Source: Pseudomonadota bacterium
GTDB lineage: Bacteria > Myxococcota_A > Polyangia > Haliangiales > Haliangiaceae
Length of the DNA: 27,048 nt
NCBI GenBank assembly: GCA_014584455.1
Contig: JACTMV010000308.1
Coordinates: 1-27,048, forward strand
Direction: 5' to 3'
Positions 12,633-15,092 of the stretch are shown here, one piece after another. Made by a program: the position numbers and the translations under genes. Every line of letters begins with the position of its first letter. Position 1 is the first letter of the stretch. The notes beneath the pieces were generated by a model, which searched no databases, was not told the origin of the DNA, and worked only from the letters and a program-made list of their open reading frames with translations.

Positions 12633-15092
12633 ATGCGCGCCCCGCTGCTCGCCGCCGCCGCCGTCACCGCGGCGGTCGGCGCCCGTCCCGCCGCCGCCGA
12701 CGAGCTGACCAGCGCACTCGATCAGGGCGTGGTCGAGATCTCGCACGCGGTCGAGATCTCGGTCGCCGCCGGCGTCGCCCGCTACCGCGTGCGCCGCACC
12801 TTCGCCAACCCCGGCGCCGTCGCCGACGAGGCCCGGCTCGAGCTCGACCTGCCCTACGGCGCCGCCGCCACCGGCCTGCGCATCCGCGCCCGCCGGCAGT
12901 GGTTCGACGGCGACCTGCTGGAGGCGACCGCCGCCCTCGCGCGCTACCAGGAGCTCACCGGCCGCGGGCGGTGGGAGCCCAAGGATCCGGCGCTGCTGGC
13001 CTGGCGCTGGGCGGACAAGCTGGCGCTGCAGGTGTTCCCGGTGCTGCCCGGCGCCACCAGCACCGTCGAGTACACGCTGACCGTGCCCACCCGCTACAGC
13101 GGCGGCCGGATCTTCCTGTCGTACCCGCGGCCGCACACCGCCGGCAGCAACCTGGCCGAGCCCGTGCTGGTGGTGCGCCCGGCGTGGGCCGACGCCACGA
13201 CCCCGATGCGGCTCGACGGCGAGCGCGTCGCCACCGACACCCCGCTGGTGCTGCGGCCGCCGGCGGACCAGCCGTGGCTGGCGGCGATCGAGCGCGACGA
13301 GCACGCCAGCTACGCCGCGAGCGCGATCGAGGTCGCGGCCACGCCGGCGACCCGCCGCACCTTCGCCGCCGCCACCGTCACCCTCGAGCTCGAGCACACC
13401 TTCCGCGGCGACCTGCGGATCGCGCTGGTCACGCCGGCGGGCGCCGCGATCGAGCTCTTCGGCGGCGAGGGCGGCGGCGCCAACGACGTGCGCGGCCGCT
13501 TCCCGGTGACGCTCCCCGCCGGCACCACCGGCGCCGGCACCTGGCGGCTGGTGGTGTCGGATCACGCCGCGCTCGACACCGGCACGCTCGAGGGCTGGGC
13601 GCTCGAGCTCGGCGACGGCGCGGCGATCAAGGTCGCGGCCACCGACACCCCGGTGTTCGTGCCCGACGCCCCCGAGCGCCCGTCCGACGGCGGCGTCGCC
13701 GTCCTCGAGCTGGCGCCGCCGGCGATCCCCACCGTCGCCGCGCGGCTCGGCCGGGTCGTGGCCTCACCCGCCCACGCCTTCACCCGGCTCGAGCTCGACG
13801 TCGCCCCGGTGCTGCGGCCGCTGCCGCGACGACCGCAGGTGGTGTTCGCGATCGACGCCTCGCACTCGATGGGCCCGGCCGGGGTCGAGCTGCAGCTCGC
13901 GCTGGTGCGCGCCTACCTCGGCCACGTGCCCGACGCCGAGGTCGAGCTGGTGGTCTACCGGCGCGCCGCGAGCCGGCTGTTCGGCGCGTTCGTGCCGGCC
14001 CGCGAGCTCGACGCCCGGCTGGCCGCCGCCGTCGCCGCCGACCGGCTCGCGCCCGGCAACGGCAGCGCGCTCGACGACGCGGCGCGGGTCGCGGCCGCCG
14101 CGCTCGCGGGCCGCCCCGGCCCCCGCCGCGTCGTCCTGGTCTCCGACGCCCTGGTCCGCCCGCGCTGGGCCGACGCGCCGGCCCGGGCCGCCCTCGCCGC
14201 GCTCCCCGCCGACACCGTCGTCCACGTCGTCGTCGCCAGCCCGCGCCACGGCGGCGAGCCGGCGCTCGAGCGCGACGACGATCACGCGCTGGCCCCGCTC
14301 GCCCTCGCCCACCGCGGCATCCTCGCCGAGCTCGCGGGCGGCCGCGACCCCGGCAAGGCCCTGCCCCGGCTCACCCTCGGGCTGGTGCGCCCGGTGCAGC
14401 TCGACCACGTCCAGCTCCGCGGCCTCGATCGCGCGACGGGCCGCGCGATCGAGCTCACCCACGGCCGCCACGACCGGCCCGTGCCCTCGACCTTGCCCGA
14501 GGGCGCCGGCCTGCGCCTGGTCGTCGACCACGCCCACGCGCCCACCCGCGTCGAGCTCACCGCGATGATCTGGGGCGAGCGCTTCCGCCGCGTGATCGAC
14601 GCCGACGCCGCGTTCTCGCGCGCCGCCGCCGCCTGGGTGTTCTCCGAGGACGACCACGGCGCGCTGTCGCCCGCCGAGATGATGACGGTGGCGATGCAGG
14701 GGCGCGCGGTGTCGCCGGTGACGTCGTACCTGGCGATCGAGCCCGGGGTCCGACCGTCGACGATCGGGCTCGAGCGGGAGGGCCAGGGCCGGCTGGGCAG
14801 CCGGTCGGTCCGGGCGCCGCGCGTGGTCATGGGCACGGCCCGCACCCGCGCCCGCCCCGACCCCGCGCCGCTGCTCGCCGCCGGGGTGCGCGCCTGCGTC
14901 GACCGCCACCGGCCGGCCGCCGGCTGGCAGCTCACCCTCGAGCTCGACACCTCCTACGACGAGATCGTCGACGTGACCACGCCCGACGCGCGCGCGCCGC
15001 TGGCCGGCTGCCTGGTCGAGGCGGCGTGGGCGGCGCGGCTGACCCCGGCCTTCGACCTCGGGCGCGAGCGCTTCACCCTCACGCTCCCCTGA
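12633..15092 (+). CDS. Secreted multidomain protein: VIT domain, then proprotein-convertase P-domain, then von Willebrand A (vWA) domain, then a roughly 250-aa C-terminal region
   Basis: Sec signal peptide (MRAPLLAAAAVTAAVGARPAAA|DE). The VIT-like N-terminus is ISHAVEISVAAGVARYRVRRTFANPG...LRIRARRQWFDGDLLEATAALARYQELTG. The P-domain motif is FRGDLRIALVTPAGAAIELFGG...GTWRLVVSDHAALDTGTLEGWALEL. The vWA start is VVFAIDASHSMGPAG, followed by Rossmann-like alternation. Stop at 15090-15092. Confidence 0.7.
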   Translation: MRAPLLAAAAVTAAVGARPAAADELTSALDQGVVEISHAVEISVAAGVARYRVRRTFANPGAVADEARLELDLPYGAAATGLRIRARRQWFDGDLLEATAALARYQELTGRGRWEPKDPALLAWRWADKLALQVFPVLPGATSTVEYTLTVPTRYSGGRIFLSYPRPHTAGSNLAEPVLVVRPAWADATTPMRLDGERVATDTPLVLRPPADQPWLAAIERDEHASYAASAIEVAATPATRRTFAAATVTLELEHTFRGDLRIALVTPAGAAIELFGGEGGGANDVRGRFPVTLPAGTTGAGTWRLVVSDHAALDTGTLEGWALELGDGAAIKVAATDTPVFVPDAPERPSDGGVAVLELAPPAIPTVAARLGRVVASPAHAFTRLELDVAPVLRPLPRRPQVVFAIDASHSMGPAGVELQLALVRAYLGHVPDAEVELVVYRRAASRLFGAFVPARELDARLAAAVAADRLAPGNGSALDDAARVAAAALAGRPGPRRVVLVSDALVRPRWADAPARAALAALPADTVVHVVVASPRHGGEPALERDDDHALAPLALAHRGILAELAGGRDPGKALPRLTLGLVRPVQLDHVQLRGLDRATGRAIELTHGRHDRPVPSTLPEGAGLRLVVDHAHAPTRVELTAMIWGERFRRVIDADAAFSRAAAAWVFSEDDHGALSPAEMMTVAMQGRAVSPVTSYLAIEPGVRPSTIGLEREGQGRLGSRSVRAPRVVMGTARTRARPDPAPLLAAGVRACVDRHRPAAGWQLTLELDTSYDEIVDVTTPDARAPLAGCLVEAAWAARLTPAFDLGRERFTLTLP

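What the first reader, a model, noticed from the sequence alone, without database searches (positions are those of the whole stretch)
12633..15092. Proprotein-convertase P-domain embedded between VIT and vWA domains without any subtilisin domain
The P (Kex2/furin-type) domain normally follows an S8 subtilisin catalytic domain and stabilises it. Here the clear P-domain signature (FRGDLRIALVTPAGAAIELFGG....GTWRLVVSDHAALDTGTLEGWALEL) is inserted into a non-protease scaffold that is secreted. This is an unusual domain shuffling, and it suggests the P-domain is being used as a standalone jelly-roll binding module.
Basis: partly seen in the sequence, partly recalled or inferred. Interest (0 to 1): 0.4.

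Follow-up and report, generated by a model that had tools for sequence, protein, structure and literature searches.

The report
Exported ITIH-like protein with P-domain insert
This myxobacterial gene encodes an exported, non-protease binding protein built like the mammalian inter-alpha-trypsin-inhibitor heavy chains, with a genuine furin-type P-domain permanently inserted; that is a modest architectural variant, because bacteria often use P-domains without subtilisin.

Summary

The whole protein resembles ITIH1 (Foldseek E 7.5e-21). It has a signal peptide, an invariant MIDAS metal-binding site and a C-terminal domain with two invariant cysteines.

It belongs to a conserved family: at least 411 proteins and 220 genome loci, and every locus with an informative label is from the Polyangia myxobacteria. 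The P-domain is present in 79 of 79 loci that cover that region. Databases already label these "proprotein convertase P-domain-containing protein".

The claim of unusual shuffling is only partly right. The P-domain profile hits 13,323 protein clusters, and only 9 of the 148 best-scoring have S8.

A major vault protein gene lies 1.1 kb upstream, but that adjacency occurs in only 4 of 80 loci, so it is local synteny.

The most likely role is metal-ion-dependent ligand binding in the cell envelope or matrix, with the P-domain as a structural or binding module. Interest is low to moderate.

The parts
12633..15092 (+). Complete gene: 819-aa exported VIT - P-domain - vWA protein (stop codon included)
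   Evidence: ORF list; codon-position GC; identical or 98%-identical proteins on record, P0001-P0003
12633..12698 (+). Predicted Sec signal peptide (aa 1-22, MRAPLLAAAAVTAAVGARPAAA|DE); no lipobox cysteine
   Evidence: Read from the sequence. The same n/h/c-region pattern before invariant D23 is seen in all 31 family members inspected. No signal-peptide predictor was available.
12702..13316 (+). N-terminal beta-sandwich (aa 24-228) containing the VIT domain (Pfam 37-147 = nt 12741-13073); corresponds to the N-part of ITIH1 'HC-Hybrid2'
   Evidence: Pfam VIT; profile hits to ITIH4 and ITIH1 VIT regions; Foldseek to 6fpy; ITIH1 domain limits from PMC7170535. The domain correspondence is inferred.
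13317..13634 (+). Inserted kexin/furin-type P-domain (aa 229-334; Pfam core 247-325)
13635..13835 (+). Beta-strands leading into the vWA (aa 335-401), likely the N-part of an integrin-like hybrid domain
   Evidence: Secondary structure of the AF2 model, pLDDT mostly >85; analogy with ITIH1 residues 266-287; inferred
13836..14387 (+). von Willebrand A domain (aa 402-585; Pfam VWA_2 403-506)
13854..13868 (+). MIDAS motif D408-x-S410-x-S412; the other MIDAS positions are S478 and D505
   Evidence: D408, S410, S478 and D505 are invariant in 61 of 61 sequences; S412 is S in 58 and T in 3. The motif aligns with the ITIH DxSxS motif.
14388..14747 (+). Post-vWA strands, helices and the conserved SPVTSY(V/L)AxEPGxRPS strand (aa 586-705), closing the hybrid and sandwich domains as in ITIH1
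   Evidence: AF2 secondary structure; invariant V693 P695 V696 T697 S698 A701 E703 P704 G705; ITIH1 topology; inferred correspondence
14748..14864 (+). Low-confidence, probably flexible linker (aa 706-744; Gly-rich in most family members, Arg-rich in this protein)
   Evidence: pLDDT < 50 for residues 706-738; family consensus GxGxGxG; sequence
14865..15089 (+). Family-specific C-terminal alpha/beta domain (aa 745-819) with two invariant cysteines (C755, C793), a probable disulfide
   Evidence: pLDDT ~90; Cys invariant in 61 of 61; no Pfam or PDB sequence match

Best explanation
The gene encodes an exported, non-catalytic binding protein of Polyangia myxobacteria. [quoted passage not shown] A genuine kexin/furin-type P-domain of about 105 residues is inserted between the VIT sandwich and the strands that lead into the vWA. 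A flexible linker and a small C-terminal domain, probably disulfide-bonded, follow the core. Shown: the domain identities, their order, the absence of any protease domain, the signal peptide pattern, the invariant MIDAS, fixation of the P-domain across the family, and the lack of any conserved gene partner. Inferred: after Sec export the protein binds a protein or polymer ligand in the periplasm, on the surface or in the matrix through a Mg2+/Mn2+ ion held at the MIDAS, as ITIH1, ITIH4 and integrins do. Also inferred: the P-domain acts as a rigid beta-sandwich that buttresses the neighbouring domains or adds a second binding surface, its usual non-catalytic role beside many bacterial secreted enzymes. 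It is not a proprotein convertase and not a vault component.
Against: No ligand, localisation or phenotype is known for any family member. Export is inferred from sequence pattern only. Model coordinates and PAE were not available, so how the P-domain packs against VIT and vWA could not be examined. High conservation (45-67% identity across three orders, 1-2 copies per genome) fits a housekeeping envelope role better than a fast-evolving adhesin, so 'adhesion' may be too narrow a description. ITIH1 binds several ligands independently of its MIDAS, so the MIDAS may not be the only or the main binding site.
Confidence: 0.6

Rival explanations
1. ITIH4-like protease trap. The protein is a bait-type inhibitor of secreted proteases. 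A protease cuts the flexible linker (aa 706-744), and the vWA MIDAS then locks a non-covalent complex. The P-domain, which normally packs against protease catalytic domains, supplies the docking surface.
For: The closest solved relatives are ITIH4 and ITIH1. ITIH4 inhibits proteases after cleavage in a protease-susceptible region, in a strictly MIDAS-dependent way (PMC7793589). The target has a low-confidence linker between the core and a C-terminal domain and an invariant MIDAS. P-domains sit next to S8, C1, M36 and trypsin catalytic domains in related proteins.
Against: No protease gene recurs near the family's 80 loci. The linker is Gly-rich low complexity in most members and not a conserved bait sequence. 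In convertases the P-domain acts in cis on its own catalytic domain, and no case of docking in trans is known to me. Similarity to ITIH is ~12-19% identity, too remote to transfer a specific mechanism.
Confidence: 0.12
2. Vault accessory protein. Like eukaryotic VPARP, which carries VIT and vWA domains and binds the major vault protein, this VIT/vWA protein works with the MVP homologue encoded 1.1 kb upstream (9000-11537).
For: A bona fide MVP homologue (MVP_shoulder E 2.2e-25, Vault_3 E 8e-8) lies one gene upstream on the same strand. The arrangement is kept in the window's own clade.
Against: MVP lies within 10 kb in only 4 of 80 family loci, all in the window's clade, where the whole block is syntenic. 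It is absent from loci at 50-62% identity. Three other MVP loci have no VIT/vWA gene within 10 kb. In assembly GCA_016717005.1 the two genes are on different contigs. The target has a signal peptide and MVP does not, so they would be in different compartments. An oppositely oriented lipoprotein gene separates them. The target has no PARP or BRCT domain.
Confidence: 0.02
3. Extracytoplasmic partner or sensor of Ser/Thr protein kinases. The protein delivers a ligand-binding signal to a membrane kinase encoded next to it.
For: Ser/Thr kinase genes are the only recurrent neighbours (24 of 80 loci within 6 kb), with several immediately upstream on the same strand. Kinase catalytic-loop motifs are ~2.3-fold denser at 0-4 kb than at 4-10 kb from the gene. 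One database protein, P0099, is annotated as a kinase-VIT-P fusion.
Against: The adjacent kinases fall into several small non-orthologous groups. Myxobacterial genomes are very rich in such kinases (general knowledge), and the enrichment is weak and not corrected for shared ancestry. No in-frame kinase lies upstream of the gene in any of the 80 loci. P0099's junction looks like out-of-frame translation running into an intact signal peptide, so it is probably an artefact. This window has no kinase next to the gene.
Confidence: 0.06
4. Relic of a protease. The P-domain is left over from an ancestral S8-P convertase-like enzyme whose catalytic domain was replaced, and it is now functionless.
For: Only the absence of a catalytic domain.
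Against: The P-domain is retained in 79 of 79 loci down to 34% identity and is as conserved as the vWA. It lies inside an ITIH-like scaffold and not at a terminus. No S8 remnant was detected at E <= 1.
Confidence: 0.02

Closest known systems
Inter-alpha-trypsin inhibitor heavy chains (ITIH1, PDB 6FPY; ITIH4, PDB 9C4F)
   Same: The order VIT sandwich then vWA with a canonical MIDAS, plus strands and helices after the vWA that close hybrid-type beta domains. ITIH1 is the best whole-protein structural match (Foldseek E 7.5e-21), and ITIH4/ITIH1 are the best PDB sequence-profile hits. Both are exported.
   Different: Only ~12-19% identity. The target has a ~105-residue P-domain inserted between the VIT sandwich and the pre-vWA strands, and a different C-terminal domain with two Cys. 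It has no ITI_HC_C Pfam hit. It is bacterial. No chondroitin or hyaluronan transfer chemistry is expected.
Kexin/furin proprotein convertase P-domain (Pfam PF01483; furin PDB 4OMC/1P8J; Aeromonas sobria ASP PDB 3HJR/3WQB)
   Different: It is not preceded by an S8 catalytic domain, and it is internal, not C-terminal to an enzyme. The RGD of this particular protein is not conserved in the family (the consensus there is K/R-S-D-L).
Bacterial multi-partner P-domain proteins (P-domain with C1, M36, trypsin, transglutaminase-elicitor or PKD partners, or in arrays of up to 20 copies)
   Same: All use the P-domain outside the subtilisin context in large, probably secreted proteins.
   Different: In the proteins scanned, the P-domains sit mostly after a catalytic or PKD domain or in tandem arrays. 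Here a single copy is embedded in a VIT/vWA scaffold.
Bacterial VIT-domain sorting-system targets (NCBIfam TIGR03788 marine proteobacterial sortase target; TIGR04477 XrtN system VIT protein)
   Same: An N-terminal VIT domain on an exported bacterial protein. These were the only NCBIfam hits.
   Different: Scores of 24.5 and 17.6 bits against cut-offs of 551.65 and 250, so it is not a member of either family. No C-terminal sorting signal is recognisable.
[quoted passage not shown]
   Same: It contains VIT and vWA domains (established knowledge), and in this window an MVP homologue is a near neighbour.
   Different: The target has no BRCT or PARP domain and carries a signal peptide. The MVP adjacency is not conserved (4 of 80 loci).
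CglB, the vWA outer-membrane adhesin of Myxococcus xanthus gliding motility (PMC9946355)
   Same: A myxobacterial envelope protein whose function rests on a vWA domain (abstract listed).
   Different: CglB is a lipoprotein without VIT or P-domains. No homology beyond the vWA fold was tested, and the target family's named hits are all from Polyangia, none from Myxococcus.

Membership tests
Pfam PF01483 P_proprotein (P-domain superfamily) | Score above the curated gathering threshold over most of the model | tested here: met
   54.1 bits against a cut-off of 21, model positions 4-85 of 86
Pfam PF01483 P_proprotein (P-domain superfamily) | Eight-stranded jelly-roll fold superposable on the furin/kexin P-domain and closer to it than to other beta-sandwiches | tested here: met
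Kexin/furin proprotein convertases (MEROPS S8B) | Subtilisin-like catalytic domain with a D/H/S triad immediately N-terminal to the P-domain | tested here: not met
   No Peptidase_S8 hit at E <= 1 in Pfam. Residues 24-228 are a VIT beta-sandwich.
ITIH / VIT-vWA heavy-chain-like proteins | N-terminal VIT domain | tested here: met
   PF08487, 33.4 bits against a cut-off of 26.5; aligns to ITIH4 29-113 and ITIH1 42-116
ITIH / VIT-vWA heavy-chain-like proteins | vWA domain with a complete MIDAS (DxSxS ... T/S ... D) | tested here: met
ITIH / VIT-vWA heavy-chain-like proteins | Overall three-domain fold of ITIH1 (vWA inserted in a hybrid domain on a large beta-sandwich) | tested here: inconclusive
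   ITIH1 is the top Foldseek hit at E 7.5e-21 over ~750 columns, but the global TM-score is only 0.25-0.32. The domains are shared, their relative orientation differs or is uncertain, and the coordinates could not be inspected.
ITIH / VIT-vWA heavy-chain-like proteins | ITI heavy-chain C-terminal domain (Pfam ITI_HC_C) and a C-terminal processing site | tested here: not met
   No such Pfam hit. The C-terminal domain has no Pfam or PDB match.
Vault particle components (VPARP-like MVP partner) | Conserved genomic or physical association with the major vault protein | tested here: not met
   MVP lies within 10 kb in 4 of 80 loci, one clade only. It is absent. MVP loci lack VIT/vWA genes.
Vault particle components (VPARP-like MVP partner) | PARP catalytic and BRCT domains; cytoplasmic location | tested here: not met
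   No such Pfam hits. A signal peptide is present.
NCBIfam TIGR03788 / TIGR04477 (sortase or exosortase VIT targets) | Score above the curated cut-off | tested here: not met
   24.5 against 551.65 bits and 17.6 against 250 bits

The most novel reading that the evidence does not exclude
The family is a bacterial counterpart of the ITIH4 bait-type protease inhibitor. An exported VIT/vWA trap is cleaved in its flexible linker and then clamps the attacking protease through its MIDAS. The inserted P-domain, a module that evolved to pack against protease catalytic domains, has been recruited as the protease-docking surface. This would be the first prokaryotic ITIH-type inhibitor and the first P-domain acting in trans.
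Probability: 0.1. Interest if true: 0.55.

Novelty: new variant of a known kind. Interest (0 to 1): 0.25.

Why it matters
If the reading is right, Polyangia myxobacteria carry a well-conserved, exported, integrin/ITIH-like metal-dependent binding protein at one or two copies per genome, and nobody has studied its role. These organisms have large secretomes and extracellular matrices and a predatory, social lifestyle, so the protein is a reasonable candidate for matrix organisation, cell-surface interaction or control of secreted proteases. Orthologues in cultured Nannocystis strains make it experimentally accessible. For domain biology, it is a clean example of a P-domain fixed inside a non-enzyme scaffold. 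That supports the view that the P-domain is a general-purpose beta-sandwich and not a subtilisin-specific accessory. It does not open a long-standing question, and a specialist in bacterial secreted proteins would not be very surprised.

Tried and rejected
1. Vault hypothesis. I noticed that the gene one position upstream is a major vault protein homologue and tested a VPARP-like link in both directions. It is rejected: 4 of 80 loci, no MVP near diverged orthologues, no VIT/vWA near other MVP genes, and the two genes sit on different contigs of one assembly.

2. Kinase fusion or partner. P0099 looked like a kinase-VIT-P fusion, but its junction reads as out-of-frame sequence ahead of an intact signal peptide. 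No in-frame kinase lies upstream in any of the 80 loci. The neighbouring kinases are not orthologous to one another. The enrichment is weak at ~2.3-fold and uncorrected for shared ancestry. I kept it only as a low-probability rival.

3. A single-sequence search of the PDB with the whole protein gave nothing at E <= 1. Family profiles were needed.

4. The P-domain profile against PDB sequences gave only weak hits (E ~0.3) to furin and ASP. The structural comparison settled it.

5. The AlphaFold-database Foldseek library was not available. So I could not list UniProt entries with the same architecture or look for relatives without the P-domain.

6. A search for family members lacking the P-domain found none. 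The only locus without a hit is truncated by a contig end.

7. The C-terminal domain (aa 745-819) has no Pfam or PDB sequence match.

It missed one S8 protein that Pfam found. Two rounds of HMM iteration raised the count from 8 to 9 of 148.

9. Literature searches found no paper on a VIT-P-vWA protein.
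Full report

Yes. An ATG-to-stop ORF occupies exactly 12633-15092 on the + strand and encodes 819 residues. The window is about 76% G+C. The ORF has the codon-position G+C pattern of genuine genes here (GC3 0.98, GC2 0.57).

Pfam finds three domains, each above its curated threshold:

| Domain | Residues | E-value | Bits (cut-off) |
|---|---|---|---|
| VIT | 37-147 | 5.4e-8 | 33.4 (26.5) |
| P_proprotein | 247-325 | 1.7e-14 | 54.1 (21) |
| VWA_2 | 403-506 | 4.7e-7 | 30.8 (27) |

The P_proprotein match covers model positions 4-85 of 86. No Peptidase_S8 or PPC family appears even at E <= 1.

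That test fails:
- An AlphaFold model of residues 228-335, built from a 21-sequence alignment, has pLDDT 83.8.

The structural domain spans about residues 229-334, slightly more than the Pfam envelope.

**2. What the whole protein is**

Family size and labels:
- A word-indexed search of 5.8 billion proteins returned at least 411 homologues at E <= 1e-5.
- The 120 listed are almost all 785-850 aa. The one exception is P0099 at 1,133 aa (section 4).
- They are 48-100% identical to the query. Nearly all align over at least 96% of it, and one aligns over 73%.
- All carry VIT, all but one carry P_proprotein, and about 70% also have a recorded VWA_2 hit.
- NCBI names them "proprotein convertase P-domain-containing protein". 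JGI names them "subtilisin-like proprotein convertase family protein", which is misleading because there is no subtilisin domain.

Taxonomy:
- A scan of one genome per GTDB species found 220 loci encoding a relative.
- Among the 80 fetched, every informatively named one is from Haliangiales/Kofleriaceae, Nannocystales or Polyangiales. That includes cultured Nannocystis punicea FL3, N. pusilla Na p29 and Nannocystis sp. RBIL2.
- These orders all belong to Polyangia within Myxococcota.
- At least ten MAGs carry two paralogues.
- The window itself matches an 'uncultured delta proteobacterium isolate PRO4' contig at 100% identity (L010).

A 61-sequence alignment (A1) shows what is invariant:
- All 31 members inspected begin with a basic n-region, a hydrophobic stretch and a small-residue site before an invariant Asp23. 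This is a Sec-type signal peptide without a lipobox cysteine.
- The vWA has a complete MIDAS. D408, S410, S478 and D505 are invariant in 61 of 61 sequences. S412 is Ser in 58 and Thr in 3.
- A strand motif SPVTSY(V/L)AxEPGxRPS (residues 692-709) is nearly invariant.
- Two cysteines, C755 and C793, are invariant and are the only cysteines in most members. They lie in the C-terminal domain, which suggests a disulfide and fits an extracytoplasmic location.

Structure:
- The full-length AlphaFold model is confident (mean pLDDT 87.5, pTM 0.83). Low confidence is confined to the signal peptide, a loop at 602-611 and a linker at 706-738.
- Its best Foldseek match in the PDB is inter-alpha-inhibitor heavy chain 1 (6fpy, E 7.5e-21, about 750 aligned columns). 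After that come mostly vWA-domain proteins, such as ArnB, pilus-tip adhesins, BatB and integrin beta chains.
- The Aeromonas protease 3hjr matches separately through the P-domain.
- By sequence profile, the only PDB hits are ITIH4 (E 1.6e-5), ITIH1 and an integrin I-domain.

According to the ITIH1 structure paper (PMC7170535):
- That pair sits on a 16-stranded sandwich formed by residues 45-265 and 601-652, plus helices 544-600.

In ITIH4 and ITIH1 the vWA begins about 240 residues after the VIT begins. Here the distance is about 370 residues. The excess corresponds to the P-domain. It therefore sits at the junction between the N-terminal sandwich (residues 24-228) and the strands that lead into the vWA (335-401).

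The domain-by-domain correspondence is my inference from secondary structure and spacing.

**3. Is the P-domain an oddity or an integral part?**

It is integral:
- A profile of the P-domain detects it in 79 of the 80 loci. The one exception is truncated by a contig end before the domain. The most divergent member, at 34% identity, still has it.
- Its mean column conservation (0.65) equals that of the vWA domain (0.65).
- The RGD in this particular protein is not conserved. The family consensus at that position is K/R-S-D-L.

**4. Is a P-domain without subtilisin unusual?**

Not in bacteria.
- An exhaustive HMMER search with the P-domain profile covered 1.84 billion cluster representatives. It found 13,323 proteins at E <= 1e-3 and 3,272 at E <= 1e-10.
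- The top hits are proteins of up to 5,764 residues, with up to 20 P-domain stretches each.
- Only 9 of the 148 best non-family representatives contain an S8 domain.
- A Pfam scan of ten mid-sized hits gave these partners:

| Partner domain(s) | Count |
|---|---|
| K319L-like PKD only | 3 |
| Transglutaminase elicitor | 2 |
| Papain C1 | 1 |
| Fungalysin M36 | 1 |
| Trypsin | 1 |
| P-domains alone | 1 |
| S8 | 1 |

One caveat applies. The ranking favours proteins with many copies, so these fractions are not an unbiased census. They are enough to show that the domain is promiscuous.

One apparent fusion was checked. P0099 looked like a kinase-VIT-P protein, but its junction reads like out-of-frame translation ahead of an intact signal peptide. 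It is probably a gene-call artefact.

**5. Context, and a lead that failed**

The gene's surroundings:
- The gene one position upstream on the same strand (9000-11537, 845 aa) is a clear major vault protein homologue (MVP_shoulder E 2.2e-25, Vault_3 E 8e-8).
- VIT stands for 'vault protein inter-alpha-trypsin', and eukaryotic VPARP combines VIT and vWA with MVP binding. So I tested for a functional link.
- Between the two genes lies an oppositely oriented Cys-rich lipoprotein gene (11558-12562).
- Downstream there is a convergent M50B peptidase gene.

The link fails in both directions:
- The same block is kept in the 98%-identical relative.
- In a 64% relative it is kept loosely, with MVP 7 kb away and five genes inserted.
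- Orthologues at 62%, 59%, 52% and 50% identity have no MVP gene within 10 kb.
- Over 80 loci, MVP is within 10 kb in only four, all in the window's own syntenic clade.
- Three other bacterial MVP loci have no VIT or vWA gene within 10 kb.
- In assembly GCA_016717005.1 the two genes lie on different contigs.
- The target is exported, whereas this MVP has no signal peptide.

Bacterial MVP homologues in Myxococcales have already been described (bioRxiv 10.1101/872010).

An unbiased clustering of neighbouring ORFs found only one family that recurs in more than about 15% of loci, the Ser/Thr kinases (24 of 80 loci). The evidence for a real link is weak:
- The kinases belong to several non-orthologous groups.
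- None is fused in frame to the gene.
- The local enrichment is only about 2.3-fold and is not corrected for shared ancestry.

The gene therefore behaves as a stand-alone unit.

**6. How it most likely works**

Shown:
- It is an exported protein with no catalytic domain.
- It has an ITIH-like VIT/vWA scaffold with an invariant MIDAS.
- A P-domain is fixed inside that scaffold.
- A flexible linker and a C-terminal domain with two invariant cysteines follow the core.

Inferred:
- After Sec export it binds a ligand in the periplasm, at the surface or in the matrix through a divalent cation at the MIDAS.
- ITIH1 does this for self-association and C3 binding. ITIH4 does it for protease capture.
- The P-domain serves as a rigid beta-sandwich that stabilises its neighbours or adds a binding face.

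I put about 0.6 on this general mechanism. The identity and architecture are close to certain.

The most interesting rival is an ITIH4-like protease trap in which the P-domain docks the protease (about 0.1). Three things argue against it. No protease gene is linked to the family, the linker is low-complexity and not a conserved bait, and the similarity to ITIH is remote.

**7. Comparison with what is known, and novelty**

- It works like an ITIH or integrin-type MIDAS binder.
- It shares the VIT and vWA/MIDAS features of ITIH, but lacks the ITI_HC_C domain and is only 12-19% identical.
- It contains a true member of the P-domain superfamily but is not a proprotein convertase.
- It falls far below the cut-offs of the two NCBIfam VIT families it touches.
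- No paper on this architecture was found, although databases already label the proteins.

I class it as a new variant of a known kind. It is a VIT/vWA heavy-chain-like protein with a fixed P-domain insert, restricted as far as seen to Polyangia.

Interest is low to moderate at 0.25. The family is still conserved, uncharacterised and experimentally accessible.

Noticed in passing
window 9000-11537 (+): An 845-aa bacterial major vault protein homologue (MVP_shoulder E 2.2e-25, Vault_3 E 8e-8). It is very conserved: 5,960 database proteins at E <= 1e-10, and the top 120 are 66-99% identical, far more conserved than the VIT-P-vWA gene across the same genomes (87-90% vs 62-67%). Bacterial MVPs in Myxococcales are already described (bioRxiv 10.1101/872010), but their function is unknown.
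   Followed up: partly
window 11558-12562 (-): A Cys-rich predicted lipoprotein (signal MSSIRVLVLTSLVATLIAC) with no Pfam match, transcribed divergently from the target gene. It is found next to the target in only 6 of 80 loci, all close relatives of the window's organism.
   Followed up: partly
window 15964-16542 (-) and 15098-15880 (-): A second Cys-rich lipoprotein-like gene, whose orthologues carry a BfoA_C (PF28386) hit, followed by a Peptidase_M50B membrane protein that ends 5 nt from the target's stop codon (convergent). Both are syntenic only within the window's clade.
   Followed up: partly
window 21590-23050 (-), C-terminal end of the protein: A DEAD-box helicase whose C-terminal tail contains an uninterrupted run of about 24 glycines followed by five arginines (…[32 protein letters not shown]).
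   Followed up: no
window 18872-21571 (+): An 899-aa ORF with strong coding signal, a signal-peptide-like start and no Pfam hit at E <= 0.01. Orthologues of 877-899 aa are syntenic in L005 and L008. It may be an outer-membrane protein.
   Followed up: no
window 5320-7524 (+) and 1908-3383 (-): Two fusion architectures. One is a HEAT-repeat protein fused to a C-terminal cyclophilin domain. The other is a cytochrome bd subunit-I-like membrane domain fused to a cbb3-type cytochrome c domain.
   Followed up: no
loci L026, L029, L036, L041, L046, L050, L071 (immediately upstream of the family gene); P0099: Ser/Thr protein kinase genes lie directly upstream on the same strand in several family loci and within 6 kb in 24 of 80. 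Kinase-motif density is ~2.3-fold higher at 0-4 kb than at 4-10 kb. The kinases are not mutually orthologous, and the one annotated 'fusion' (P0099) looks like a frameshift artefact.
   Followed up: partly
L010/L073, L013/L024, L014/L022, L030/L034 and six other pairs: At least ten MAGs carry two paralogues of the VIT-P-vWA gene (for example 100% and 56% identity to the window protein in isolate PRO4). The family duplicated within Polyangia, and both copies keep the P-domain.
   Followed up: partly
proteins P0121-P0147 (representative library): Many proteins of roughly 900-5,800 residues with arrays of 3-20 P-domains are the strongest matches to this P-domain profile. Their other domains and their organisms were not examined.
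   Followed up: no
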